A stretch of DNA of 64,000 bases from the NCBI GenBank assembly GCA_902785935.1, contig CADAAN010000006.1:4309-68308 (forward strand), written 5' to 3'. This DNA comes from an uncultured Pseudomonadota bacterium (GTDB taxonomy: Bacteria > Pseudomonadota > Alphaproteobacteria > RF32 > CAG-239). This document shows, one piece after another, positions 8,395 through 61,613 of this stretch (position 1 is its first letter; the number at the start of each line of letters is the position of its first letter). A program made the position numbers and the translations under genes. Under the pieces are notes generated by a model that worked only from the letters and a program-made list of their open reading frames with translations, searched no databases and was not told where the DNA came from.

Positions 8395-9552
8395 CTATTT
8401 TTTGCTGATTTGTATCATTTTGTTAATGGTATCGTTCAATTTATCGCGTAGGTGTTCAACACCCAAATTGACGTAAACTTGCGTGCTTTGCAGACTTTTG
8501 TGGGTTAAGGCTCGTTTTACCATAAAAGCATCAGCCCCGTTTGCTATCAGATATGTACCTAAGGTATGTCTAAGGTCGTGAATTCGGAAATTTGTTATAT
8601 TTGCCCTGCGCAATATAATTGCCCACGATTTTTTAATATCTACCACATGACCTGATTTTGAAGTCGGAGAATAGAATATCCAATCGCTTTGAGCCGATGA
8701 TTGTCTTTGATATAAAACCTTCATTGCTTCTTCAGCCAGAGCAATCGTTACATTCTCATCTGTTTTTGTTTGCGGAATTTTCCAAATCTTAGCAGACATA
8801 TCTATGTCTTCCCATTTCATTTCAAAAACATTTGATTTGCGAGCTCCGGTAAAGATAAGCATTAAAACAATGTCACGCACCAAATCATCTTCATAAGCGT
8901 AAACCGTTTCCATAAAGCGCTTGAGTTCATTATGCTCTAAATAACGCACACGGGCTTCAACTTTGTTTAATTTGACTGATAATGCAGGGTTCCGACCGTC
9001 AAAACGTTCTTCTTTGATTGCATAGTTGAACATTGTACTGATAAGCTTAATAAAATGATTTGCTATGTAATTGCCGTTTTTGACGGATATTTGCCGATGT
9101 AATTCGCGTAGCATATCGCCGGTTATTTCTTTTAGGTGTTTTCTGCCAAGTTTACACAGCTTTGAATTCCATATTCTTTTGTAATCTAATATTGTTTTTT
9201 GCGCAAGATATCTTTCTCTGTCTGTAATAAAATCATCGTATAACTGTTGCAATAGAGTATCTTGTTTATACTGACGCTTTGTAACGTTAGGGTTTTCTCC
9301 ATCATTCATTTTCTTGCGATTTGTAACGGCGGCAATTCTGGCTTCTTCTACAGTCATAGTCGGAGATTCGCCGAGTTTAACGCGAGTATCATGCCCGAGA
9401 ACTCTTTGTCGGATATAGAAACTTTTTGCCCCGTTCGGAGTTATTTGCAGCGACAGTTTAGGCTCTACCGTATCATAATAATAGGTTCTTTTCTTCGGTA
9501 TCGGTAAGTTTTTGATATTTGTGTTGGTAAACTTAAAATGATTAGCGTTCAT
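8395..9552 (-). CDS. int: Tyrosine recombinase, P4-type integrase
   Basis: N-terminal arm-type domain (KRTYYYDTVEPKLSLQITPNGAKSFYIRQRV). C-terminal catalytic residues are in HDLRHTLGTYL and QVYVN. It lies adjacent to the tRNA fragment. Confidence 0.9.
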   Translation of the reverse strand: MNANHFKFTNTNIKNLPIPKKRTYYYDTVEPKLSLQITPNGAKSFYIRQRVLGHDTRVKLGESPTMTVEEARIAAVTNRKKMNDGENPNVTKRQYKQDTLLQQLYDDFITDRERYLAQKTILDYKRIWNSKLCKLGRKHLKEITGDMLRELHRQISVKNGNYIANHFIKLISTMFNYAIKEERFDGRNPALSVKLNKVEARVRYLEHNELKRFMETVYAYEDDLVRDIVLMLIFTGARKSNVFEMKWEDIDMSAKIWKIPQTKTDENVTIALAEEAMKVLYQRQSSAQSDWIFYSPTSKSGHVVDIKKSWAIILRRANITNFRIHDLRHTLGTYLIANGADAFMVKRALTHKSLQSTQVYVNLGVEHLRDKLNDTINKMIQISKK

Positions 9553-9735
9553 AAGCCCCTCTGTCGTATAGTAATTGTTTTCCGGTGCCGCACTGGTGCC
9601 GCATATTTAAACAAATTTTATCCAATTTAATAAAACTTGTCAAGTAAAATTTTTAAAAATAATATAATAAAAACAAACACATAAATGCATTTTCATAAGA
9701 GATATGATTTTCTAAATAAAACATAATATCAATTA

Positions 9736-16265: not shown

Positions 16266-17324
16266 ATGAAGAAATATGTTTGGGTTTTTGGACTTATTTT
16301 AAGTTATAATGCACAAGCTTATGATTATAATGATTGTTTTGGTGCAAGCGGATGTCAGCCCTGTCCGAATAGTACGGACGGCAAATGTTTTTATGCTGTT
16401 GAAGGCAGCAAAATGACAATTTATGGCCCGACATCAACCGAACAAAATGCAGATGGCAGCTTAAAAGAAACAACATCGATTCCGCGTTATGCCTTTACCA
16501 ACAGCGATAATGCCAGCAATTTGCCGGAAAATATCACTTCTCTTGAAATAACAGGTAATATCACAACCGTTGAAGGTTATGCTTTTTGCTCTGCCCCTCT
16601 GACAAATGTACAATTTCCTGAGACACTTGAAACAATATCGGAATTGGCTTTTTGGAACAATAATTTATCACAAATCAATTTTCCTAATTCGCTTAAAAAT
16701 ATAGAAGAAGGTGCTTTTAATTGGAATCCATTTTCAGAAATTAATTTACCCGACGGATTAATGACGCTGGAGGGGTTAACAGGTGTTCCCCTGGGGCATG
16801 TTGTTATTCCGGATTCGATTGCAGAGGTTAAAGATGCGATTTTTTCTTCAAACTATCGTTTGCAATCATTGGTTGTCGGCGCAGACACAATGCTTGGCAA
16901 TATTTTTACCTACACAACAGGGGCTGTTAGTGTGCAATTTGATAAATTCAAGATGTTTTGCGCAGAAAATAACGGCTCATGCACAACAGCTTTGCAAAGT
17001 GCCGGTGCAACACAAGAACAAATTGCGCAAATACTGATAAGTTATACAAAAGATGACGCAACAGGCGTTTATCAAACAAGTGACGGAAAATATTATGCCG
17101 ATGTCAATTTGATGGCAAGACAAATGGCTTGCGAAAATAAGCAAAGCTGTGAAATTGCCAGTGCTGATATTCGGGCAGGTCGTCCTTTTGATATGAAAGG
17201 AAAATCTTACGCATCTGTCGATGATTTCATTCAAGGAAAATATATTCCAAAGCGTATCTATACCATCGATGAAGCCAATCATGTCGCGGGCAAGACAAAC
17301 ACTTTTACGATTCGGTATCGATAG
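16266..17324 (+). CDS. Secreted BspA-type leucine-rich-repeat protein with conserved C-terminal tag
   Basis: Signal peptide (...SYNAQA-YD), Cys-rich N-terminus, LRR_5-like repeats (ITSLEITGNITTVEGYAF...). C-terminus KRIYTIDEANHVAGKTNTFTIRYR. Confidence 0.85.
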   Translation: MKKYVWVFGLILSYNAQAYDYNDCFGASGCQPCPNSTDGKCFYAVEGSKMTIYGPTSTEQNADGSLKETTSIPRYAFTNSDNASNLPENITSLEITGNITTVEGYAFCSAPLTNVQFPETLETISELAFWNNNLSQINFPNSLKNIEEGAFNWNPFSEINLPDGLMTLEGLTGVPLGHVVIPDSIAEVKDAIFSSNYRLQSLVVGADTMLGNIFTYTTGAVSVQFDKFKMFCAENNGSCTTALQSAGATQEQIAQILISYTKDDATGVYQTSDGKYYADVNLMARQMACENKQSCEIASADIRAGRPFDMKGKSYASVDDFIQGKYIPKRIYTIDEANHVAGKTNTFTIRYR

Positions 17325-20593: not shown

Positions 20594-21493
20594 TTATCTG
20601 TACCTGATTTTGACCGAATTGACTTTGCCTGCGATGGCATTTGCTTCATCGATGGTGTAGATACGCTTTGGGATATAATCTCCTTTTTGCATCGCGGAAA
20701 TTGAGGCATAAGTTTTCTCACCGATACGATATTTCCCGTCAGGTGTCTTAGAATAATGAATAATTTTCGGGTTTTTACCCGTTTGAAGCGCTATTCTTGA
20801 ACATACCTCTTCGGAAGCCGCACAATATAGTTTTTGAAGGTTTGTGTTTGTAAAAGCTTCATCATCAATATTTGTCACACTATTCGGAATAACAAGTGTT
20901 TCAAGTGTTGAAATATCAGCAAGAGACGTCCAACCGATTGAGGTTACACCTTCAGGGATTTCCAGATTTTTAAGTTTTGTTCCGACAAAAGCTCTATCAG
21001 GAATTTCTGTTTGAGCCTGCCCAAGCATCAAATAATCTATTTTTGTTGCCGCAAAACTCCAAGCACCGACATATTGAAGATTTAGAGGTGTATTAATTTC
21101 TTTTAATAAATCTGCACCCTGAAATGCAGCACCGCCAATTTGTTCAATAGAATCCGGCAAATCAATACTGCTGATTTTTGTATAAGCAAGTGTATAACTA
21201 CCGATATTGGTTAAAGAATCCGGCAATGAGACACTTCGAATAGTTTCAAGTTTTTCAACCCATGGTGTTCCCGGCCTTTGGTTTTTAGAATCCCATTCGT
21301 AATTTGTCATTTTTCCGACAGGTGCATTTTCATCTTTGGCTTCAATTGAAAAAAGACCTGTCTGCTCATTTAGTCTGGCAAGGCAATTAGCGCCGCAATC
21401 CCAACAATTGATGTTTAAATCATCACCGCAAGTATTGACTGCTTTAGCTTGAGAGCTCATTGTCAGTAAAAAAAATAAAATCCATTTTCTCAT
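20594..21493 (-). CDS. Secreted BspA-type LRR protein with conserved C-terminal tag
   Basis: Signal peptide (..SSQAKA-VN), Cys-rich N-terminus, LRR_5 repeats. C-terminus KRIYTIDEANAIAGKVNSVKIRYR. Confidence 0.85.
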   Translation of the reverse strand: MRKWILFFLLTMSSQAKAVNTCGDDLNINCWDCGANCLARLNEQTGLFSIEAKDENAPVGKMTNYEWDSKNQRPGTPWVEKLETIRSVSLPDSLTNIGSYTLAYTKISSIDLPDSIEQIGGAAFQGADLLKEINTPLNLQYVGAWSFAATKIDYLMLGQAQTEIPDRAFVGTKLKNLEIPEGVTSIGWTSLADISTLETLVIPNSVTNIDDEAFTNTNLQKLYCAASEEVCSRIALQTGKNPKIIHYSKTPDGKYRIGEKTYASISAMQKGDYIPKRIYTIDEANAIAGKVNSVKIRYR

Positions 21494-29406: not shown

Positions 29407-30540
29407 CTAACGATATCGAATCGAGAAGGTGTTTGTTTTGCCCGCCACCTGATTCGCCTCATCGACGGTATAAATGCGCTTGCCCTCATAGCCGATAATC
29501 TTGCCATCTTCATAAATGGCCGTACTTCCATCGGCTAATTTTTTAGAGTATTTAACTGCCATAATGTCAGCAAAGTCATTCGGGTCAAGCCCTGCCGCCT
29601 CAATATTTCTTTGGCACTTAGCGACAGATCCGGCACACTGTATTTCTATGTTGCTTATATCAAGGTTATCGAAAGGAGAATAAATTCTGTCATAACTAAA
29701 AAATACTTCACAGCTATCCATTTCATATGTACAGCCGGCTTCTAAAGCTTTACTATAAAGTTGTGTATAATCTTCTTCGCTCATATGGCTACGGTTATTT
29801 TCTACATTTTCTAAGCTGTAAAAATCATCTTCTATCACATATCTGCTGAATGCAAAATTAAAATCATCTGATACTGTGATTCTTTCAAGATTTTTAATAC
29901 CCTTAAAAGCACCTTCATCAATATACTCAACCGAATCTGGCAATGTAAGGCTTATCAAACCTGACATACCCATAAAAGCATCTCTCTCTATATTTGTAAC
30001 CGAATCCGGAATAGTAAGATTAGTAACGTTTCTCATATACGCAAATGCAGTATCTTCAATATTTTTCAGTGAATTTGGTAAAGTTAAATTTGTAACAGCA
30101 GTAACATCATAAAATGCACCGCTACCGATATCTTCCACCGCATTACCGATTGTTAAATTTGTTACGTTAATCATATTACTAAAAGCACGATCACCAATAG
30201 AAACCACAGAATCTGAAATTTCAATGGATGTAGCATTTGTAGCTTCTCTAAAAGCATTATTTCCAATTGTCGTTATACCTTTTTCTACAACAACAGAGGT
30301 GATATCTTCGCGAATAGCATGCCATGGCATACTGTAATGATACCAACCAGAATAATTCTTATTTTCAAAATCATCCATAGCACCAGTGCCGGAAATAGTC
30401 AAAATACCGCTATCCGTATCCAAGCTCCAATAGCAATTCTCGCCGCATTTTTTGTAGCCGCTGTTTGTACCAATAATATCTGCTTTGACGCCTGAGGATA
30501 ACAAAATAAATCCCATCATCAGAATACATTTATTTTTCAT
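29407..30540 (-). CDS. Secreted BspA-type LRR protein with conserved C-terminal tag
   Basis: Signal peptide (..SSGVKA-DI) and about 7 LRR_5 repeats (TNLTIPDSVTNIERDAFMGM...). C-terminus KRIYTVDEANQVAGKTNTFSIRYR. Confidence 0.9.
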   Translation of the reverse strand: MKNKCILMMGFILLSSGVKADIIGTNSGYKKCGENCYWSLDTDSGILTISGTGAMDDFENKNYSGWYHYSMPWHAIREDITSVVVEKGITTIGNNAFREATNATSIEISDSVVSIGDRAFSNMINVTNLTIGNAVEDIGSGAFYDVTAVTNLTLPNSLKNIEDTAFAYMRNVTNLTIPDSVTNIERDAFMGMSGLISLTLPDSVEYIDEGAFKGIKNLERITVSDDFNFAFSRYVIEDDFYSLENVENNRSHMSEEDYTQLYSKALEAGCTYEMDSCEVFFSYDRIYSPFDNLDISNIEIQCAGSVAKCQRNIEAAGLDPNDFADIMAVKYSKKLADGSTAIYEDGKIIGYEGKRIYTVDEANQVAGKTNTFSIRYR

Positions 30541-30564
30541 AATTTTTTCCCTTTTAAAGATGTT

Positions 30565-30864
30565 AATATAAAAAAGTTTAACCGCGCCTTTTTAAGTGCG
30601 GCGGGGAGTGAAGAAATCATGTAAACCTAAATGACTCTTGCAACCTTTAGAATAACTCTTGTACATCCTTTGCAAGCTCCCCAACCAAAACTTTGGGGAT
30701 AATCGGCATTTTATACAAAAACACCTTCAAAACAAACAGTGTTATCCGTCACTGAGGTTTACAAAAGCTTCTTCAAAGCTCCGCACCCAATACATAGGCA
30801 CTAAATGATAAGATTTCTCCCATCACTTAAGATTTATTAGAACACGTTTTGATTTAATTGTCAA
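30565..30864 (-). promoter_or_regulatory. Leader family B, copy B1: promoter + ~255-nt structured leader + terminator
   Basis: Minus strand: TTGACA (30864-30859), 17 nt, TCTAAT (30841-30836). Conserved blocks and covarying helices are shared with 41695-41952 and 61258-61513. A hairpin plus T-run lies near 30571-30606. Confidence 0.7.
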
Positions 30865-30946
30865 ATAAAAAAGCAAAATTTTATGTACTTTTACTTTTTT
30901 TTGAAGTATAGTAATGCCAGTTGAGGAAATATTTGGAAAAAAATAA

Positions 30947-40815: not shown

Positions 40816-41673
40816 TTAGCGATACCGAATCGAAAAAGTGTTTGTCTTGCCTGCAACTTGATTGGCCTCATCGATGGTGTAAATGCGCTTTGGTGCGTAA
40901 TGTTGATTGTAAATATCATTTGGGGAACTGTAAAACCTTCCGTTATAATAATAACCTGTTGAGTATTTTTGATAAAATTTAATTTTATCGCCAATTTCTT
41001 CATCGTCTAAAAGAGCCTGACAACTGGCATTTGTGTCTTCGCAATAAATAGCCAAAGATTCTGACAATGCTTTATTTATGGAATTAGTAAGCATTTTTTT
41101 TGTAATCATGGTCGAACCGGATATGGTTAAAGATTTCAATTCCGTGCCGCCTAATGTCCAATCTTCATCTTCAAGAATAACATCTTTGGGTAATACAATA
41201 TCTTCAACTTTTGTACGATTAAAATTAGCCCCTCCGATAAAAGTCAGACTATTTGGTAAATTAATTTTTTCAAGTGATTGAGTATCATTAAAAGCACCAC
41301 CCGAAATCTTTTGAAGTCCTTCGGGTAAAACAGCCTCTCGCAAATCAAACAAATATTCAAAAGCAGAAGAACCAATTGATTTAAATATTTTATCACTTGA
41401 TTCGTTTTCGATAACGACTTTATAAATTTGTGAAGAATAGGCTCCCCAATCGGCTGTATTATGGCACCATGGGTCACAGCTGTGACTATAATTTTTCATA
41501 TCACCATAACCTTTAATGGTTAATGTATTCGTGTTTTTATCAAGTGTTGCTGTACAACTATCATTTGAGGTTGCCGCACAGTCAAATGTACAAATATCAC
41601 TGTTATCACAAAGTGTATCAGCATATGTATTAAAAGCCGTAAATATACAAAAAATATAAATTACTTTTCTCAT
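40816..41673 (-). CDS. Secreted BspA-type LRR protein with conserved C-terminal tag
   Basis: I placed the true start at ATG 41673 (MRKVIYIFCIFTAFNTYA-DT, with GGAGAA 7 nt upstream). The 67-codon N-terminal extension in the track ORF runs through the conserved leader RNA. C-terminus KRIYTIDEANQVAGKTNTFSIRYR. Confidence 0.85.
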   Translation of the reverse strand: MRKVIYIFCIFTAFNTYADTLCDNSDICTFDCAATSNDSCTATLDKNTNTLTIKGYGDMKNYSHSCDPWCHNTADWGAYSSQIYKVVIENESSDKIFKSIGSSAFEYLFDLREAVLPEGLQKISGGAFNDTQSLEKINLPNSLTFIGGANFNRTKVEDIVLPKDVILEDEDWTLGGTELKSLTISGSTMITKKMLTNSINKALSESLAIYCEDTNASCQALLDDEEIGDKIKFYQKYSTGYYYNGRFYSSPNDIYNQHYAPKRIYTIDEANQVAGKTNTFSIRYR

Positions 41674-41694
41674 ATCTTTTCTCCAAAATTTATT

Positions 41695-41987
41695 AAACGA
41701 AAAAACCACTCTAAAATGAGCGGCGGGGAGTAAAAGAATCATGTAATGGAAAATGACTTCCGTAACCTTTAGGTCAAAACCTTGAACATACGCCACGGAC
41801 TCCCCAACCAAAATATCGGGGATAAGCATTGTTTTAAAATAAAAAAACAACACTAAAACAGCGTTATCTCTCACTGTCCATTACAAAAGCTCTTTTAAAG
41901 CCCCGCACCCTTTTCGGGTACTTGATAGAAAAAGCCAAAACCTTCCTATCTGATTTATATTATTACATATCAAAAACATCTTGTCAA
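41695..41987 (-). promoter_or_regulatory. Leader family B, copy B2: promoter + structured leader + terminator
   Basis: Minus strand: TTGACA (41987-41982), 17 nt, AATAAT (41964-41959). Conserved blocks as in B1 and B3. The terminator CCGCTC/GAGTGG plus T5 lies near 41697-41726. Confidence 0.7.
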
Positions 41988-45086: not shown

Positions 45087-45986
45087 TTATCGATACCTTA
45101 TTTTGAAAGAATTAACCTTGCCCGCGACGGCATTCGCCTCGTCGATGGTATAAATGCGGATATCGGCACGAGCAGGAACAGATGGCAAGACAGATGGAGA
45201 AACAGTTCCTGATGCTGAAGCAATTTTTGCTCTGCAAGAAGTCTCCGTTTCGCAACCCTCTTCCGTTCCTCCCAACATCATTTTTGCTGCTGAAGAGTAA
45301 TAATTATCACCAACTTTATATACCCCATCTTCTTTAGTATATTGTTCAATTTTTGACGTCCCATGGCCTTTACAAATATTAACATCTTCGCAAAAAAGTT
45401 TTGTGTTGCTGGCAAACGGAAAGTTAACAATTGTTGTTCCTCTGCTAATAATGACATTGTTCAAGGATTCATTTTGAAAGCTACTTCCAAAAGCATCCTG
45501 ATTAATTTTCGTTACACCGCTTAAATCAATATCATGCAGGTTGGTTGTATATGTAAAAGCGCCACTTCCAATTTCTTTAACTCCTGTAAAATCCACACTC
45601 GACAAAGCAGATCGCGAAAAAGCGGTTCCGCCGATTGATGTAACACCGCTTGCAAAAGCAAGTGAGGTTACACCTTGAGGAAGCATTGATGTCCCATAAG
45701 TGTCATCTGCAAAAGCTGATCTCGGTACTTTGTATGTGAGATTGCCGTTTGAATCTGTTGAAGTAATTGATGACCCCTGAATGGTCATTTTTCCGTTATC
45801 AATAGTGTAGTATGTGAGCATATGAGAGGCATAGCTACTGGCTTGCGACAAACATCCTTCGCCATAAGTTGAAACACAAGCCTGACAAAATGTGTTCCCT
45901 TCAGGGCACTCAATTAAAGCAATGGAAATTTTTGAAAATGAAACTGTTGCTACTAATGCCGAGGTTAAAAAAATATTTCTAGTCAT
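45087..45986 (-). CDS. Secreted BspA-type LRR protein with conserved C-terminal tag
   Basis: N-terminal signal-like segment, Cys-rich region, LRR_5 repeats (VTSLAFASGVTSIGGTAFSRS...). C-terminus IRIYTIDEANAVAGKVNSFKIRYR. Confidence 0.85.
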   Translation of the reverse strand: MTRNIFLTSALVATVSFSKISIALIECPEGNTFCQACVSTYGEGCLSQASSYASHMLTYYTIDNGKMTIQGSSITSTDSNGNLTYKVPRSAFADDTYGTSMLPQGVTSLAFASGVTSIGGTAFSRSALSSVDFTGVKEIGSGAFTYTTNLHDIDLSGVTKINQDAFGSSFQNESLNNVIISRGTTIVNFPFASNTKLFCEDVNICKGHGTSKIEQYTKEDGVYKVGDNYYSSAAKMMLGGTEEGCETETSCRAKIASASGTVSPSVLPSVPARADIRIYTIDEANAVAGKVNSFKIRYR

Positions 45987-50126: not shown

Positions 50127-50211
50127 GCGGACGTGGCGAAATTGGCAGACGCGCCAGACTTAGGATCTGGTGCCGAAAGGCGTGCGGGTTCAAGTCCCTC
50201 CGTCCGCACCA
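50127..50211 (+). tRNA. tRNA-Leu (UAG), long variable arm
   Basis: 85 nt. Acceptor GCGGACG/CGTCCGC, anticodon loop CTTAGGA, variable stem GCC-gaaa-GGC, T loop TTCAAGT, encoded CCA. One apparent T-stem mismatch. Confidence 0.85.
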
Positions 50212-52252: not shown

Positions 52253-52843
52253 TTAGTAGTCCCCTCTGATTACATGATAAAACCGACAGCTATCTAAACT
52301 TGTTTCACATGCCTGACAGCCCTCAATGATATCAGACATTTTGACCTCCGTAATACCTCCTGTAGGCCAATATATATCCTTACCGCCCACCTCTATCAAT
52401 CCGCCTGTCCACCATTCAACCGGGACGGCATTTTCCCATCCTGCAGAGGCAAAAGCAATACACGATTTTGAATCGGTGAAATGGATAACAAATTCACCCT
52501 GAACATATGAACCACCGCTATCATAAAAATCCATATTCAGCGTTCCTATCGGAAGTTTGCAAGCCTCGTCTCCATTAAGATCCGTTGTTACTTGACAATC
52601 CGGTAAAAGCCCGTATTGAATTAAATCTTCGGCATCACGAATCTCAATACCTTCTCCCCAGCCTTTTTGCTCCAACTCCATAAAGCGTTGAAGAATTTGA
52701 TTATATGTGTCAATTGTTTGATTCATTTTGTATTTAAACATTGCGGCAGAATAACCTTTGAGTGCGCCCGCCGACAACACACCGACAATAGCCAACACGC
52801 CCAGCATTTCAACCATACTTCTACCTATTTCATTAATTTTCAT
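52253..52843 (-). CDS. Type IV pilin / pseudopilin-like protein
   Basis: The N-terminus MKINEIG-RSMVEMLGVLAIVGVLSAG has a prepilin-type signal with Glu at +5, followed by a hydrophobic helix. Confidence 0.75.
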   Translation of the reverse strand: MKINEIGRSMVEMLGVLAIVGVLSAGALKGYSAAMFKYKMNQTIDTYNQILQRFMELEQKGWGEGIEIRDAEDLIQYGLLPDCQVTTDLNGDEACKLPIGTLNMDFYDSGGSYVQGEFVIHFTDSKSCIAFASAGWENAVPVEWWTGGLIEVGGKDIYWPTGGITEVKMSDIIEGCQACETSLDSCRFYHVIRGDY

Positions 52844-55490: not shown

Positions 55491-56090
55491 ATGGAAAAGA
55501 TTAAATCTGCTGTCAATGAAGCAGCGTTTATTCAAAGCGCTGACAGAGAAACTGTCAAGGAGTACATCTCCAGACACCCCCTCCACATAGAAGCTGATAT
55601 CCAGCTCCTTGAACGTGGAGATAAGGAACTTATTAAGCTTTACATCTCGCAGTTTTGCTTTTTGAGCAAGGCTGAAATCAAGCTCATCGAGCTTAAAGAT
55701 AAGGAACTTATTAAGCTTTATATCTCTCGCTGCGGCTTTGAGGATGAGGCCAAAATCAAGTTCCTGGAGATGAAGGATGTGGAGCTGATTAAGTTTTATA
55801 TCTCGAAACGGCCGTTTTTCAAAGCGGACATTAAGTTCCTTGAGCTCGGAAACAAAGAACTTATCGAGCTTTACATCTCGAAGTACAGATTTGAGGCTGA
55901 AGCGGAAATCAAGCTCATCGAGCTTAAAGATAAGGAACTTATCAAGCTTTACATCAAAAATCATCGCCTGAGAGATGATGCTGAGATGAAGCTCCTCGAT
56001 CTGAAGGATATGGAGCTGATTAAGATGTATGCCTTATATCAAGGCTTTTCTGTAAGCACGCAGATAAACATCTGTGAACTTATTGTTTAG
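55491..56090 (+). CDS. Tandem-repeat protein (six ~26-aa helical repeats, consensus AEIKLIELKDKELIKLYISxxxFxxE)
   Basis: 199 aa. There are near-identical 45-50-nt DNA blocks at about 55673-55722 and 55905-55953. GC-rich codon usage. Has its own TTGACA promoter (55420-55425) and terminator. Confidence 0.65.
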   Translation: MEKIKSAVNEAAFIQSADRETVKEYISRHPLHIEADIQLLERGDKELIKLYISQFCFLSKAEIKLIELKDKELIKLYISRCGFEDEAKIKFLEMKDVELIKFYISKRPFFKADIKFLELGNKELIELYISKYRFEAEAEIKLIELKDKELIKLYIKNHRLRDDAEMKLLDLKDMELIKMYALYQGFSVSTQINICELIV

Positions 56091-59299: not shown

Positions 59300-59880
59300 T
59301 TAACGGCTAAAAGCCTTTACCACTTGCAGCCCCTAAACGGGGCTGTTTTGCGTCTGACAGACGCAATCTGTTACTTCCTACCCCTCTGAAAGCTGGTCTT
59401 CCCTTAGTTGTTGTGATATATAGTTTTGTATCTTTTGGCTATCTTTACCTACCATATCCACATAGTACCCTCGACACCAAAATTCTCGATTTCGATATTT
59501 GTACCGCATTTGACACCACTGCTCGTATATCATTACCTTTTAAGAATCCCATAAAACTGGTGGTATCTCTACTAAATGATGTATATGATCCGGATAAGCT
59601 TCTCCTTCTATAATATTTACTCCTTTCCAGCTACATAACTCTTTTAATATTTTTACTATCTCCAGTCTTTTACTTCCGTAAAATACTTTTCTTCTGTATT
59701 TCGGCGCAAATACGATATGGTATTTACAATTCCAGCTCGTATGTGCTATACTTTTTACGTCATTTTTCATGATTAAATTCCTTATGTTTCTTGTTGCGTC
59801 TGCCAGACACTTCTTTCTAACTTAAGGAATTTATTTTTTCCACCCCTCGCTATAAGCTCTTTCGAACTACCAGCCTTGCC
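59300..59880 (-). mobile_element. Decayed IS200/IS605-family element
   Basis: Contains a frameshifted Y1-transposase gene. Subterminal hairpins: TTGCGTCTG-A-CAGACGCAA (59348-59366), CAGCCCC/GGGGCTG (59327-59345) and the related GCGTCTGCCAGAC (59796-59808). A 5'-UTR hairpin AAATTCCTTA/TAAGGAATTT (59775-59832) sits next to the start codon, as in IS200. Confidence 0.7.
59388..59770 (-). pseudogene. tnpA: IS200-type tnpA (Y1 transposase) with frameshifts
   Basis: The N-terminal 76 aa are intact (HTSWNCKYHIVFAPKYRRKVFYG...PDHIHHLVEIPP). The frame then breaks: SFMGFLKG is in the +1 frame, and VMIYEQ...YKYRNREFWCRGYYVDMVGKD is back in the original frame. Confidence 0.8.
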
Positions 59881-59994
59881 GGTGCTTTTCACAATATAAA
59901 GAACCGCGGGTGAGGAAACCCGCGGCGGATTACAATGTAATGAATTTTTTTAAAGATCATAATAATTTTTGGCAAATCCCACTAAGCTTTGCGC

Positions 59995-60609
59995 TTAGTA
60001 GAATTTCCAAGAAACCGTTGCTTGTTCGGTGCATGTAGCTACAGCACCTGTACCCGAAGCTCCGCCCATCGGATAAGGTTTACCCTCATCAGCACCTAGT
60101 ACTTTACCTTTGGCATAATTTGTACCGGTAGAAGCTTCAATTTCTACACCGATAAAACCCGAACCGGCACCCGAACCAAAATCAGCCGTTGCAAGTGCAA
60201 TGCAAGCCTCCTTAGGTAATCCTTTGTAACTGATTACAAAGGCTGTTGGTTTTGCATCACCAGTAATTGCTGTATTGACAGCAGAAATTGTATTTGAAGT
60301 AGCCATAGCTTCTAAAATTTGAACACTTCCTTTAAATGGGTTTGTTAAAGCGGCAGGAGATGTACCCATTACAGGCGGAACAATTCCTAAACTGACAGCT
60401 TGTGTCGCCAAGCCGGCGTAGTTACCCTGCTGTCCATACATTGTTCGGATGTTTGTCACAAGCATTGTGATTTGTTCCATTGTCGTGTTGAGTTTGTGTT
60501 TGAACATCGCTTTTGAATAGCCTGCCAAACCGCCGGCTGACAAAACACCGATAATCGCCAAAACACCAAGCATTTCAACCATTGAACGACCATTTTGATT
60601 ATTCTTCAT
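59995..60609 (-). CDS. Type IV pilin / pseudopilin-like protein (distal gene of pair)
   Basis: MKNNQNG-RSMVEMLGVLAIIGVLSAGG. The first ~65 aa are nearly identical to the upstream paralog. C-terminus ..VSWKFY. Confidence 0.8.
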   Translation of the reverse strand: MKNNQNGRSMVEMLGVLAIIGVLSAGGLAGYSKAMFKHKLNTTMEQITMLVTNIRTMYGQQGNYAGLATQAVSLGIVPPVMGTSPAALTNPFKGSVQILEAMATSNTISAVNTAITGDAKPTAFVISYKGLPKEACIALATADFGSGAGSGFIGVEIEASTGTNYAKGKVLGADEGKPYPMGGASGTGAVATCTEQATVSWKFY

Positions 60610-60648
60610 TTTTTTATTCCTTTATTAAACTGTTAAAAACTTATATGA

Positions 60649-61230
60649 TTAATAGAACTTCCAAATGATTGTGTTTTTTGCACCTGCACAATCACTAACT
60701 GCATCAGCCATTTCATACGCTTTTCCCTCAGCACGTTTGTTTGCAATGCCTGTACCAATGACTATAGAAGATCCATCTGCTGAGGCTGCTGCAGTACCTG
60801 TTTTATCGGCTATAACACCTACAAAACCTGAACCTGCGCCTGAACCAAAGTCAGACGTTGCCAAAGCAATACAAGCTTCTGTTGGTAAACCATCAAAAGC
60901 GACTGTAAATGATTCATTGTTTGTACCTGTAGCAACAATATTAACATTACCCTTAAATGGGTTTGTAAGTGTGGCTCCACTACCCATAACAGCCGGAACA
61001 ACACCAAGACTTGATGCTTCTGTATTTGTTAATCCCGCATAATTTCCCTGTGTGCCGTACATTGTACGGATATTCGTCACAAGCATTGTGATTTGATCCA
61101 TGGTGGTATTGAGTTTGTGCTTGAACATGGCCTTTGAATAACCTGCCAAACCGCCGGCTGACAAAACACCGATGATGGCAAGTACGCCAAGCATTTCGAC
61201 CATACTACGGCCGTTTTCGTTATTTTTCAT
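60649..61230 (-). CDS. Type IV pilin / pseudopilin-like protein (proximal gene of pair)
   Basis: MKNNENG-RSMVEMLGVLAIIGVLSAGG, Glu at +5. C-terminus ..IIWKFY. Confidence 0.8.
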   Translation of the reverse strand: MKNNENGRSMVEMLGVLAIIGVLSAGGLAGYSKAMFKHKLNTTMDQITMLVTNIRTMYGTQGNYAGLTNTEASSLGVVPAVMGSGATLTNPFKGNVNIVATGTNNESFTVAFDGLPTEACIALATSDFGSGAGSGFVGVIADKTGTAAASADGSSIVIGTGIANKRAEGKAYEMADAVSDCAGAKNTIIWKFY

Positions 61231-61257
61231 TTTTCAATTCCTTTTAAAAATTATTAC

Positions 61258-61548
61258 GTAAAACCGCCCCTAAAAGAGCGGTCGGAGAGTTAAACAATCA
61301 TGGATTAGAAAATGACTCCGACAACCTTTAGATTAAAAATCCTGAACATTCGCTACCGGCTCCCCGACACTTTTCGGGGATAATGTGCTATATTTAAAAT
61401 AAAAAATAACACCACATCAATACAGTGTTATCCTCACTGTCTAATCCAAGAGTTGTTTAAAACTCCGCGCCCGTCTCAGGCACTTGATAGAAAAAGTCAC
61501 CTCTTTCTATCCGACCATTATTTAACAACACAAATGCTTAATTGTCAA
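61258..61548 (-). promoter_or_regulatory. Leader family B, copy B3: promoter + structured leader + terminator (pilin-like operon)
   Basis: Minus strand: TTGACA (61548-61543), 17 nt, TTAAAT (61525-61520). Conserved blocks and covarying helices as in B1 and B2. The hairpin CCGC/GCGG plus T-rich tract lies near 61258-61285. Confidence 0.7.
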
Positions 61549-61613
61549 TTAAAAAAAACTATAACTTTAGTCATAGTTTTGCATTTGAACAATGTCTTCA
61601 TCAAATGCAGGCT

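What the first reader, a model, noticed from the sequence alone, without database searches (positions are those of the whole stretch)
59995..61230. Pilin-like proteins with an atypical G|RSMVE prepilin motif, occurring as orphans
All three pilin-like proteins (52253-52843, 59995-60609, 60649-61230) have ...G-RSMVEMLGVLAI(I/V)GVLSAG. The +5 Glu and the hydrophobic helix are canonical. The +1 residue, however, is Arg rather than the Phe/Met that is normally N-methylated by prepilin peptidase. The tandem pair is nearly identical over the first ~65 aa and at the extreme C-terminus (WKFY), but diverges in the Gly/Ala/Thr-rich globular part. That is a pattern of diversifying surface exposure. No assembly genes are nearby.
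Basis: partly seen in the sequence, partly recalled or inferred. Interest (0 to 1): 0.55.

Follow-up and report, generated by a model that had tools for sequence, protein, structure and literature searches.

The report
Scattered type IVb pilin genes, Arg-first
These three genes encode real type IVb pilus subunits from an uncultured rumen alphaproteobacterium; they sit apart from the pilus-building genes and belong to a very large, many-copy family whose mature protein would start with arginine.

Summary
Three minus-strand ORFs (60649-61230, 59995-60609, 52253-52843) all carry M-K-x-N-x-x-G-RSMVEMLGVLAI(I/V)GVLSAG.

They are type IVb pilins. The evidence is Pfam Bundlin/PilS hits above cutoff, profile hits to BfpA, PilS and TcpA, and an AlphaFold model whose only significant PDB matches are CofA-type, TcpA and PilS pilins.

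G-RSMVE is invariant in 119 of the 120 best homologues (more than 5,000 hits), all from uncultured gut and rumen Alphaproteobacteria. The Arg after the Gly is therefore a fixed lineage trait.

In human-gut relatives (CAG:495-like), pilins with the same N-terminus lie inside an R64/BFP-like type IVb operon. Two ruminant-gut lineages have that operon without any pilin gene. Their pilins are dispersed, often as tandem pairs, with at least 8 genes at 6 or more sites in one genome. This explains the "orphans".

No A24 prepilin peptidase was found in any operon or locus, and the window's own genome could not be searched.

Variable loops evolve almost neutrally (dN/dS 0.74-0.87). The N-terminus is under strong purifying selection.

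Two extras turned up. A roughly 1 kb variable block has been exchanged between pilin loci. A covariation-supported structured leader of about 330 nt, absent from Rfam, precedes both the pilin pair and two BspA-like LRR genes.

Verdict: a new variant of a known kind.

The parts
60649..61230 (-). Pilin gene 1 of the tandem pair (193 aa). Type IVb prepilin with a 7-aa leader MKNNENG; predicted cleavage G7|R8 (codons 61212-61207).
   Evidence: ORF. Pfam PilS 7.8e-14 and Bundlin 6.8e-13, both above cutoff. RBS AAAGGAA at 61244-61238.
59995..60609 (-). Pilin gene 2 of the tandem pair (204 aa). Type IVb prepilin with leader MKNNQNG; predicted cleavage G7|R8 (codons 60591-60586). Invariant Cys136 and Cys193.
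   Evidence: Family profile vs PDB: BfpA 2e-11. AF2 model with pLDDT 85. All significant Foldseek hits are type IVb pilins. Invariant columns.
52253..52843 (-). Third, divergent, solitary pilin paralogue (196 aa) with the same G|RSMVEMLGVLAIVGVLSAG N-terminus; Cys-rich globular part.
   Evidence: hhalign vs the family profile: 99.7%, E 4e-25 over 176 columns. Pfam gives only a weak N_methyl hit.
61231..61571 (-). Conserved leader of the pilin pair. It has a conserved TTGACA hexamer (61548-61543) with an A/T-rich TAAT-type motif 17-18 nt downstream, which I read as promoter-like. About 280 nt of structured 5' leader follow. The leader ends in a GC-rich hairpin (about 61283-61264) plus a U tract just before the RBS.
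   Evidence: Single-sequence fold z = -5.0. RNAalifold: 54 pairs, 24 with compensatory changes. 95.7% of cells paired vs 43-48% when partners are slid; 0/500 shuffles reach the observed values. No Rfam match. The promoter and attenuator readings are inference.
61294..61384 (-). Core of the leader (three-hairpin module) as matched by covariance model R1.
   Evidence: cmsearch: 95.6 bits, E 3.4e-20.
59903..59926 (-). Intrinsic terminator closing the two-gene pilin unit.
   Evidence: 9-bp stem with 7 GC pairs plus a T tract.
41666..41984 (-). Second copy of the same structured leader, in front of a BspA-type LRR_5 gene. The listed ORF is 40816-41874, but its true start lies just downstream of the leader.
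   Evidence: nhmmer E 7.8e-48. R1: 93.4 bits at 41735-41826. LRR_5 Pfam hit.
30546..30866 (-). Third copy of the same leader, in front of LRR_5 gene 29407-30540.
   Evidence: nhmmer E 4.8e-39. R1: 81.2 bits at 30613-30703. LRR_5 annotation.

Best explanation
The three ORFs encode major-pilin-type subunits of a type IVb pilus of the R64 thin-pilus/bundle-forming-pilus kind. The organism is an uncultured, host-associated rumen alphaproteobacterium.

Shown:
- They belong to the Bundlin/PilS family by sequence and by predicted fold.
- The N-terminal 40 residues, including Gly(-1), Arg(+1) and Glu(+5), are invariant across the 120 best homologues from rumen and gut Alphaproteobacteria; G-RSMVEML...GVLS also holds in the human-gut pilins. 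This invariance comes from purifying selection.
- In human-gut relatives the same kind of pilin lies directly after the assembly ATPase and platform genes.
- In two ruminant lineages the assembly operon has no pilin gene, while pilin genes lie dispersed through the genome as singles or tandem pairs, each with its own leader, RBS and terminator.

Inferred mechanism:
1. The prepilin inserts into the inner membrane.
2. An A24-type prepilin peptidase encoded elsewhere removes MKNNxNG at G|R. Mature subunits then begin with Arg, whose guanidinium could pair with Glu5 (i to i+4, or across subunits).
3. The BfpD/PilQ-like ATPase, the BfpE/PilR-like platform and the PilN secretin polymerise and extrude the subunits.
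4. Because all paralogues share one assembly interface, any of them, or both members of a co-transcribed pair, can enter the filament. They present different surface loops.
5. The repertoire is reshuffled by recombination through the conserved gene ends.
6. Expression probably runs through a shared structured leader that also heads BspA-like LRR surface-protein genes. Pili and LRR adhesins would then form one surface-adhesion regulon.
For: Family and fold:
- Pfam Bundlin and PilS are above cutoff for both tandem genes.
- The family profile hits BfpA (2e-11), PilS (7e-4) and TcpA (8.5e-4) in the PDB.
- The AF2 model has pLDDT 85.3. All 15 best Foldseek matches (13 at E <= 0.001) are type IVb pilins: ETEC type IVb pilus 9iuf, TcpA, CofA and S. 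Typhi PilS. Nothing significant follows them.
- 115 of 120 homologues have exactly two Cys, at invariant columns.

Motif conservation:
- RSMVE occurs in 119 of 120 homologues. Leaders are 7-8 aa in 116 and 18 aa in 3.
- The motif is the same in all fetched loci.
- A distant GC-rich R64-like operon has G|RTMIE after a 25-aa leader.

Link to machinery:
- L052 and L094 carry TcpQ/PilL-like, PilN secretin (TIGR02520, 287.6 bits), PAP_PilO, PilP-like, T2SSE ATPase, T2SSF, pilin-like, pilin and PilT-like genes.
- Ruminant operons L102-L104 and L107-L108 have the same genes through T2SSF but no pilin.
- L108 comes from the same rumen metagenome as pilin contig L028.
- Several of these ATPases carry accessions from the same ruminant genome submission as the pilin-bearing genomes.

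Multiplicity:
- At least 8 named pilin genes in genome IJ830.
- 18 tandem pairs spaced 605-724 nt apart.

Selection:
- dN/dS is 0.02-0.12 in residues 11-60 although pS is 0.5-0.76. It is 0.74-0.87 in blocks 101-120 and 161-170.

Precedent and extras:
- On the Bosea sp. RAC05 megaplasmid the major pilin lies about 420 kb from its type IVb operon.
- Cassette exchange.
- Leader structure and its copies before LRR_5 genes.
Against: - No A24 prepilin peptidase was found. Pfam annotation of every operon context lacks it. A jackhmmer search seeded with an E. coli BFP-type peptidase hit nothing in about 1.1 Mb of fetched DNA. A motif scan also hit nothing. Processing at G|R therefore rests on analogy.
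- The assembly operon was found in related ruminant lineages, not on a contig proven to belong to the window's own genome. The two ruminant operon loci share no leader element with the window lineage.
- Pfam N_methyl and TIGR02532 both score below their cutoffs on these N-termini.
- The classical type IVb descriptors of a long leader and genes clustered with the machinery are not met here.
- Nothing shows that the proteins are expressed or assembled.
- dN/dS never exceeds 1.
Confidence: 0.8

Rival explanations
1. The genes are uncleaved, membrane-anchored surface or periplasmic proteins. They descend from pilins but are no longer assembled into filaments. The N-terminal helix serves as a signal anchor, with Lys2 and Arg8 as the positive-inside charges.
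For: No prepilin peptidase was found in any operon or locus. N_methyl models score below cutoff. A basic residue right after the Gly is outside the usual cleavage-site set (my recollection of PROSITE PS00409). Human-gut operons also encode a pilin-like 197-aa protein with no class III motif.
Against: Gly(-1) and Glu(+5), which a plain anchor does not need, are invariant in 119 of 120 homologues and even in the distant L096 pilin. The first 60 residues, which form the filament assembly interface, are under far stronger constraint than an anchor requires: dN/dS 0.02-0.12 at saturated synonymous sites. Relatives place the same protein in the major-pilin slot of a full assembly operon.
Confidence: 0.08
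2. The dispersed loci form a pilin variation system. Only one or a few loci are expressed at a time, and variable cores are moved between loci by recombination through the conserved 5' and 3' ends. This changes the pilus surface to evade host immunity, protozoa or phages, or to change binding partners. It extends the best explanation and does not replace it.
For: A block of about 1 kb is 97-100% identical between two different genomic contexts. Its breakpoints lie inside the conserved 5' pilin segment and at the conserved 3' end, and the flanks are only 67-87% identical. An identical 204-aa protein occurs in two contexts with different partner genes. There are many paralogues per genome. The loops are near neutral. 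Every first gene of a locus carries a long leader ending in a hairpin plus U tract that could gate expression.
Against: All copies seen are complete genes with their own RBS. No promoterless silent cassettes exist in the window. The two contexts come from different samples, so the exchange may be between strains and not programmed. Synonymous divergence between paralogues is saturated, so conversion is rare. No invertase or recombination-site signal was tied to the loci.
Confidence: 0.3
3. They are pseudopilins of a type II secretion system, or subunits of a type IVa or Tad (type IVc) pilus.
For: Weak NCBIfam similarities limited to the N-terminal helix: GspG 0.13, GspH 0.032, PpdD-type 2e-4. 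The short 7-aa leader resembles type IVa. JGI labels a few homologues PulG or PilE.
Against: All these scores are far below family cutoffs and cover only the shared helix. The globular domain matches Bundlin/PilS by sequence and only type IVb pilins by fold. The linked machinery in relatives is PilN/PilO/TcpQ type, not Gsp, PilMNOPQ or Tad. At about 195 aa, these proteins are far larger than Flp pilins.
Confidence: 0.03

Closest known systems
Bundlin (BfpA) of the enteropathogenic E. coli bundle-forming pilus
   Same: It is the best sequence match among solved structures (profile E 2e-11, aligned over residues 45-188 including the two Cys and the GxNPFxG motif). Pfam Bundlin is above cutoff. 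The relatives' assembly ATPase is about 35% identical to BfpD, and JGI labels it bfpD.
   Different: BfpA has a 13-aa leader and Leu at +1, and it sits first in a 14-gene operon that includes its own peptidase BfpP (the gene content is from my own knowledge; compare the BFP-like plasmid locus, which has an A24 peptidase). Here the leader is 7 aa, Arg is at +1, the genes are dispersed and multi-copy, and no peptidase lies in any operon.
PilS major pilin and the pilL-V thin-pilus operon of IncI1 plasmid R64 / Salmonella Typhi
   Same: Pfam PilS is above cutoff. The S. Typhi PilS structures are among the fold hits. The relatives' operon follows the R64 order: TcpQ/PilL, PilN secretin (TIGR02520), PilO, PilP, ATPase, platform, pilin. 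A more distant relative also has PilM and a Shufflon_N PilV.
   Different: R64 carries its peptidase PilU and the adhesin PilV with its shufflon inside the operon (my knowledge). The gut alphaproteobacterial operons lack both. Variation here lies in many major-pilin paralogues, not in a shuffled tip adhesin. These operons are chromosomal and sit next to TrbC/VirB2 genes.
TcpA (Vibrio cholerae) and CofA/LngA (ETEC) type IVb pilins
   Same: These are the top structural matches (9iuf 6.9e-7, 8uhf, 3s0t, 3hrv). The N-terminal helix ...GV(L/V)SAG... is similar.
   Different: Sequence identity is only 13-20%. Their leaders are long and Met is at +1 (my knowledge; one search shows only the mature TcpA sequence). 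They occur as a single major pilin gene in an operon.
Bosea sp. RAC05 / ANAM02 megaplasmid type IVb system (Alphaproteobacteria)
   Same: It has the same operon type: TcpQ, secretin, PilO2, ATPase, T2SSF, second ATPase. No A24 peptidase is annotated in the operon. The annotated type 4 major pilin lies about 420 kb away on the same replicon, making it an orphan major pilin.
   Different: Only one such pilin was seen in the pilin locus and the operon region examined. It has a 20-aa leader and G|LTLIE. Identity to the window pilin is 26%.
Neisseria pilE/pilS pilin antigenic variation
   Same: Both have many pilin-coding loci per genome with a conserved 5' part and variable 3' part. Both show transfer of variable segments through flanking conserved sequence.
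   Different: Neisseria pilS copies are promoterless and 5'-truncated, and they donate to one expression locus (my knowledge). Here every copy is a complete gene with leader, RBS and terminator. The pilin is also type IVa there and type IVb here.
Streptococcus sanguinis PilE1/PilE2
   Same: Two adjacent, similar major pilin genes. This offers a model for a heteropolymeric filament built from a co-transcribed tandem pair.
   Different: That system is a type IVa pilus of a Gram-positive bacterium with genes clustered with the machinery, as cited in PMC10191384. No evidence here shows that both proteins enter one filament.

Membership tests
Type IV pilins in general (class III signal peptide) | Short hydrophilic leader ending in Gly, followed by about 21 hydrophobic residues interrupted by Glu at +5 (Berry and Pelicic 2015, PMC4471445). 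| tested here: met
   MKNNQNG|RSMVE(12)MLGVLAIIGVLSAGGLAG. G7 and E12 are invariant in 76 aligned homologues and in 119 of 120. The definition is quoted.
Type IV pilins in general (class III signal peptide) | Match to the curated N-terminal methylation-site models (Pfam N_methyl PF07963, TIGR02532). | tested here: not met
   N_methyl scores 18.7, 17.1 and 14.2 bits against a cutoff of 21.2. TIGR02532 scores 15.7, 12.9 and 11.3 against 16.3. These are near misses, plausibly caused by Arg+1 and Met+3.
Type IV pilins in general (class III signal peptide) | Cleavage by a dedicated A24 prepilin peptidase encoded in the genome. | not testable with these tools
   No A24 gene was found in the window, in any operon, or in about 1.1 Mb of fetched related DNA.
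Type IVb pilins (Bundlin / PilS / TcpA / CofA) | Globular domain homologous to Pfam Bundlin (PF05307) or PilS (PF08805). | tested here: met
   52.3 and 49.5 bits for Bundlin (cutoff 22.3). 36.1 and 52.3 bits for PilS (cutoff 22). The third ORF reaches this only through the family profile.
Type IVb pilins (Bundlin / PilS / TcpA / CofA) | Type IVb pilin fold. | tested here: met
   AF2 pLDDT 85.3 and pTM 0.78. Foldseek ranks 1-16 are all type IVb pilins, with TM 0.44-0.62. This rests on a predicted structure, not a solved one.
Type IVb pilins (Bundlin / PilS / TcpA / CofA) | C-terminal disulfide-bonded D-region. | tested here: met
   Cys136 and Cys193 are invariant. 115 of 120 homologues have exactly two Cys. 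The Cys align with the BfpA Cys positions. Bond formation itself was not tested.
Type IVb pilins (Bundlin / PilS / TcpA / CofA) | Long leader peptide (about 15-30 aa). This is a classical descriptor, stated not to be discriminatory in PMC10191384. | tested here: not met
   The leader is 7-8 aa in 116 of 119 homologues and 18 aa in 3. The distant L096 relative has 25 aa.
Type IVb pilins (Bundlin / PilS / TcpA / CofA) | Pilin gene clustered with its assembly genes (classical descriptor). | tested here: not met
   There are no assembly genes in the window or in rumen-clade pilin loci. The feature is met in the human-gut relatives.
Type IVb pilus system of the R64 PilL-V type (machinery, in relatives) | PilN-family lipoprotein secretin, PilO, PilP, T2SSE ATPase and T2SSF platform in one operon. 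| tested here: met
   Seen in L052, L094, L099, L102 and L107. The secretin scores 287.6 bits against a TIGR02520 cutoff of 287.65. This was not shown for the window's own genome.
Type II secretion pseudopilins (GspG/H) | Score above the TIGR01710 or TIGR01708 cutoff, plus a gsp operon context. | tested here: not met
   12.2 bits against 88.85 and 14.2 bits against 80. No gsp genes were seen.
Type IVa pilins (PilA/PilE) | Phe (or Met) at +1, a type IVa globular fold and PilMNOPQ-type machinery. | tested here: not met
   Arg is at +1. PilA models score 21.7 bits against 400. No type IVa structure is among the significant fold hits. The relatives' machinery is type IVb.

The most novel reading that the evidence does not exclude
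Arg(+1) may mark a distinct maturation route. No A24 peptidase accompanies any of the seven or more operon contexts seen, whereas classical type IVb operons carry their own. The pilins could be processed by a divergent or shared peptidase and left unmethylated, with Arg1 replacing the methylated amine as the partner of Glu5.

The dispersed, recombining pilin repertoire and the BspA-like LRR adhesins would then be co-controlled by a previously undescribed structured leader RNA, acting as an attenuator or riboswitch. Together these would form a programmable surface-variation system. Small-genome, partner-dependent gut Alphaproteobacteria would use it to attach to changing host or microbial partners.
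Probability: 0.2. Interest if true: 0.7.

Novelty: new variant of a known kind. Interest (0 to 1): 0.5.

Why it matters
Type IVb pili are known almost entirely from a few enteric pathogens and conjugative plasmids. There they are encoded by one compact operon with one major pilin and its own peptidase.

Here the same machine appears in a large, uncultured group of rumen and human-gut Alphaproteobacteria, with a different layout:
- the assembly operon lacks a pilin gene;
- several to many (at least 8 in one genome) complete pilin genes are spread through what appears to be a small genome;
- the mature N-terminus is fixed as Arg;
- the leader peptide is short;
- a shared structured RNA leader also heads leucine-rich-repeat surface proteins.

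If these pili mediate attachment to a host, protist or bacterial partner, the repertoire would be the main variable interface of an abundant but unstudied gut lineage.

The fixed Arg1-Glu5 pair is a natural experiment on two open questions in pilus biology. One is why pilin N-termini are methylated. The other is how Glu5 is neutralised.

The leader is a candidate new cis-regulatory RNA class with good covariation support.

Tried and rejected
1. The genome-contig scan with the single pilin chose poorly conserved peptides.
2. The first ATPase homologue search was saturated by near-identical human-gut sequences and showed no ruminant lineage. The search of 50%-identity representatives and a second profile search were needed.
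3. I tried to tie an assembly operon to the window's own genome through contig lengths, accession ranges, amino-acid composition, shared leader elements and nucleotide similarity. Only family-level relatedness emerged: HisRS about 70% identical to rumen pilin loci, and a shared metagenome for L108 and L028.
4. The peptidase hunt found nothing. I used a GxGDxK motif with a hydrophobicity filter, jackhmmer from an E. coli A24 peptidase, and a hydrophobic-segment survey of every operon protein. T2SSF, with three hydrophobic segments, is the only candidate polytopic inner-membrane protein in the operon.
5. Rfam gave only noise for the leader at permissive and gathering thresholds.
6. The class-1 leader covariance model did not detect the other leader classes. 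Their homology rests on my reading of alignment A6 and is not claimed as shown.
7. Silent cassettes: tblastn found no partial pilin copies in the window.
8. Positive selection: dN/dS never exceeded 1 and synonymous sites are saturated, so I rejected the word "diversifying".
9. PHROGs gave only weak pilin hits and no phage link.
10. Literature searches on RF32, Rs-D84, CAG-495 and pili found no description of this system. The Rs-D84 paper (PMC12306168) mentions no pili in those Alphaproteobacteria. I could not establish whether the window belongs to that order.
11. VirB11 genes lie next to some pilin pairs (L027, L014). I considered this a possible functional link and set it aside as unsupported.
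Full report
**1. The observation.**
The window holds three minus-strand ORFs at the stated coordinates: 60649-61230 (193 aa), 59995-60609 (204 aa) and 52253-52843 (196 aa). All begin M-K-x-N-x-x-G-R-S-M-V-E-M-L-G-V-L-A-I-(I/V)-G-V-L-S-A-G.

The tandem pair differs at only three of the first 60 residues, and both proteins end in WKFY. The middle, rich in Gly, Ala and Thr, diverges, and the pair is 61% identical overall.

Each gene has an AAAGGAA ribosome-binding site. The genes are 39 nt apart with no terminator between them, and a strong terminator follows the second at 59926-59903. The pair is therefore most likely one transcription unit.

The third ORF is a full-length, much more divergent paralogue (hhalign 99.7%, E 4e-25). 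No further partial copies exist in the window.

**2. What the proteins are.**
Pfam places both tandem proteins in Bundlin (PF05307) and PilS (PF08805), well above cutoff. The N-terminal methylation-site models score just below theirs.

A profile of 76 family members hits three type IVb pilins in the PDB: BfpA of the EPEC bundle-forming pilus (E 2e-11, over nearly the whole globular domain), S. Typhi PilS and V. cholerae TcpA.

An AlphaFold model built on that alignment (pLDDT 85.3) matches only type IVb pilins: the ETEC type IVb pilus 9iuf, TcpA, CofA and PilS. Nothing significant follows them.

Two Cys are invariant, and 115 of 120 homologues have exactly two. This fits the disulfide-stapled D-region.

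These are type IVb major-pilin-type proteins. They are not type IVa pilins, type II secretion pseudopilins or Flp pilins, whose models score far below cutoff.

**3. The family and the Arg.**
The database search returned more than 5,000 hits. The 120 best are 54-100% identical overall yet share an invariant stretch GRSMVEMLGVLAIIGVLSAGGLAGYSKAMFKHKLN. Those that carry a name are labelled uncultured Alphaproteobacteria, and fetched genome records come from rumen samples, such as roe-deer rumen RGIG genomes and RUG11221.

RSMVE after Gly occurs in 119 of 120. The leader is 7-8 aa in 116 and 18 aa in 3.

A metagenome scan added a human-gut clade that links to "Proteobacteria bacterium CAG:495". 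Its pilins are 42-54% identical but have the same G-RSMVEMLGVLAIIGVLS. A distant, GC-rich R64-like operon has a pilin with a 25-aa leader ending ...CERG|RTMIEMAGVLAIIG.

Arg at +1 is therefore a fixed, old trait of a whole branch of type IVb pilins. Type IVb pilins are known to vary at +1: Leu in BfpA and in the Bosea pilin, Met in TcpA. Even so, a basic residue there is outside the usual pattern, as far as I recall PROSITE PS00409, and I found no description of it.

**4. Why the genes look like orphans.**
The window has no pilus assembly genes, nor does the 10 kb to its left on the parent contig. They contain housekeeping genes, BspA-like LRR and ankyrin proteins, and a defence/integrase island.

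In the human-gut clade the pilin lies directly after the machinery. The order there is: an unknown ORF, TcpQ/PilL-like lipoprotein, PilN-family secretin (TIGR02520, 287.6 bits against a cutoff of 287.65), PAP_PilO, a PilP-like protein, a 560-aa T2SSE ATPase (labelled bfpD by JGI), a T2SSF platform, a pilin-like protein without a class III motif, one to three pilins, and a PilT-like ATPase. This is the R64 thin-pilus/BFP gene order.

Working from that ATPase, I reached two ruminant-gut lineages:
- L102-L104, GC 36%;
- L107-L108, GC 40.6%, which comes from the same rumen metagenome as pilin contig L028.

In both, the operon runs from TcpQ to T2SSF and then stops. It has no pilin and no PilT-like gene.

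Conversely, rumen-clade pilin loci never carry machinery. They are dispersed. One genome (IJ830, GCA_017476145.1) has at least 8 named pilin genes at 6 or more sites. Tandem pairs spaced 605-724 nt apart are common.

The cultured alphaproteobacterium Bosea sp. RAC05 gives a precedent. Its annotated type 4 major pilin lies about 420 kb from the type IVb operon on the same megaplasmid.

"Orphan" is thus a matter of gene order in this lineage and not a sign of a missing machine. I could not place an assembly operon on a contig of the window's own genome. That step is inference.

**5. The unresolved part: the peptidase.**
Classical type IVb operons carry their own A24 peptidase. The BFP-like E. 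coli plasmid locus fetched here does.

None of the alphaproteobacterial operon contexts does. A jackhmmer search seeded with the E. coli enzyme found nothing in about 1.1 Mb of fetched related DNA. T2SSF, with three hydrophobic segments, is the only candidate polytopic inner-membrane protein in the operon.

The peptidase must be elsewhere, or it is unusual. Whole genomes could not be searched. Cleavage at G7|R8 is therefore inferred from the invariant Gly(-1)/Glu(+5) register.

**6. Selection and variation.**
Across 45 distinct rumen-clade genes, synonymous differences are near saturation everywhere (pS 0.5-0.76). This includes the invariant N-terminus, where dN/dS is 0.02-0.12. The N-terminal identity therefore reflects strong purifying selection on the assembly helix and not recent gene conversion.

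The most variable blocks are residues 101-120 and 161-170, with dN/dS of 0.74-0.87. That is close to neutral but never above 1. "Diversifying selection" is not demonstrated. Relaxed or mixed selection on surface loops is.

Variable cores do move, however. The identical 204-aa protein occurs in a second genomic context (DUF192 / YihA-YidC) with a different partner N-terminus. At the DNA level, a block from about 61055 to about 60040 is 97-100% identical between the two contexts. The upstream region and the conserved 5' pilin segment are only 67-87% identical. This points to recombination through the conserved gene ends.

**7. A shared structured leader.**
The roughly 340 nt upstream of the pilin pair (61571-61231) is conserved in other pilin loci. 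It contains:
- a conserved TTGACA followed 17-18 nt later by an A/T-rich TAAT-type motif, which I read as promoter-like;
- several hairpins;
- a final GC-rich hairpin plus U tract 20-35 nt before the RBS.

The window copy folds far better than shuffles (z = -5.0).

In an 11-sequence alignment, 54 predicted pairs are 95.7% paired, against 43-48% when partners are slid. Twenty-six pairs show changes on both sides, and none of 500 shuffles reaches the observed values. These sequences are related, so the shuffle count is not a probability. The slid control is the stronger argument.

Rfam has no match.

The same element, detected by nhmmer and by covariance model R1, sits before two BspA-type LRR_5 genes in the window (41984-41666 and 30866-30546). 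It also sits before LRR_5 genes in two relatives. Other rumen pilin loci carry at least two further sequence classes of leader.

I read this as a shared 5' regulatory leader, possibly an attenuator, for surface-protein genes. The function is inferred, not shown.

**8. Mechanism, with likelihoods.**
- Type IVb pilin identity: about 0.9 (shown by sequence and predicted fold).
- Assembly into pili by a separately encoded PilN/PilO/ATPase/platform operon in this organism: about 0.75 (inferred from relatives).
- Cleavage at G|R by an unlinked A24 peptidase, giving an Arg1 N-terminus: about 0.7 (inferred).
- Tandem pairs co-transcribed and possibly co-assembled: about 0.5.
- The repertoire used for surface variation through differential expression or cassette exchange: about 0.3.

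The host-associated gene content, the adjacency of the operon to TrbC/VirB2 genes in three lineages, and VirB10/VirB11 genes near some pilin pairs suggest attachment to a partner cell. No data here test that.

**9. Comparison and verdict.**
The proteins belong to the known type IVb pilin family. The system differs from every described type IVb system in five ways:
- the fixed Arg(+1);
- the short leader;
- the uncoupling of many complete pilin genes from a pilin-less assembly operon;
- the lack of an operon-encoded peptidase;
- the shared structured leader.

I rate it a new variant of a known kind, of moderate interest (0.5). The most valuable follow-ups are a whole-genome search for the peptidase, determination of the mature N-terminus, and tests of the leader RNA.

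Noticed in passing
window 61231-61571 (-), 41666-41984 (-), 30546-30866 (-); also L003 3910-4251 and 11099-11365, L014 3311-3595, L021, L023, L026, L027, L030: A structured leader of about 330 nt with strong covariation support and no Rfam match. It has a conserved TTGACA, several hairpins, and a final hairpin plus U tract before the RBS. It precedes both pilin pairs and BspA-type LRR_5 genes, so it is a candidate new cis-regulatory RNA for surface-protein genes.
   Followed up: partly
window 60040-61055 vs L003 about 4420-5440 (L004 likewise): A block of about 1 kb is 97-100% identical to a pilin locus in a different genomic context. It covers the variable part of pilin gene 1, the spacer and nearly all of gene 2. 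The upstream region and the conserved 5' pilin segment are only 67-87% identical. This indicates cassette exchange through the conserved gene ends.
   Followed up: partly
L010, L014 (9664-10003), L018, L019, L028, L036, L038, L042, L043; L017, L031-L033, L041, L044; L035, L037, L040: Other rumen-clade pilin pairs carry at least two or three further sequence classes of long upstream leader. By eye these keep a similar hairpin layout to the window's class. The class-1 covariance model did not detect them.
   Followed up: partly
window 59378-59770 (-): An IS200/IS605-type Y1 transposase gene, split into 76-aa and 51-aa ORFs (a likely frameshifted pseudogene), lies immediately downstream of the pilin pair. 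A weak sub-threshold Rfam hit (STnc490, E 0.04) lies just before it at 59780-59887.
   Followed up: no
window 16266-17324 (+), 20594-21493 (-), 29407-30540 (-), 40816-41874 (-), 45087-45986 (-): Five BspA-type LRR_5 paralogues lie in 64 kb. An ankyrin-repeat protein lies just left of the window. Together they suggest a host- or partner-associated lifestyle.
   Followed up: no
window 1-9600 and the 10 kb to its left (L109 1-10000): A low-GC stretch (30% against about 40%) contains a tyrosine integrase, AbiEi, an HTH protein, an HSP70-like ATPase and glycosyltransferase/APH/NUDIX genes. To its left lies a TerB, BrxC/BrxD-like and helicase cluster. This is probably an integrated defence island.
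   Followed up: no
window 55491-56090 (+): A 199-aa ORF built of tandem repeats of about 33 aa (...KELIKLYIS...AEIKLIELKD...) has no Pfam or PHROG match. A long ORF on the opposite strand mirrors it.
   Followed up: no
L094 12821-13414; L052 9166-9858: Human-gut operons encode, between the platform gene and the pilin, a pilin-like protein of about 197 aa. Its globular domain has weak PilS/Bundlin similarity and ends in WHFQ. It has a plain transmembrane helix and no Gly/Glu class III motif.
   Followed up: no
L094 1613-2786 (-), L099 221-583 (-), L107 3926-4273 (-); L014 1-3250; L027 1-738: In three lineages the type IVb operon is divergently adjacent to TrbC/VirB2 genes. VirB10 (about 1,400 aa) and VirB11 genes lie next to or near pilin pairs in two rumen loci. 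This may link the pilus with a type IV secretion system.
   Followed up: no
L102 1774-3848; L107 13531-15533: An OmpR-type response regulator and histidine kinase pair flanks the pilin-less assembly operon in both ruminant lineages, upstream in one and downstream on the opposite strand in the other.
   Followed up: no
window 50127-50208 (+): A tRNA overlaps the listed GTG start of the trigger-factor ORF (50133). The true tig start is therefore further downstream, probably at MKVTEEK.
   Followed up: no
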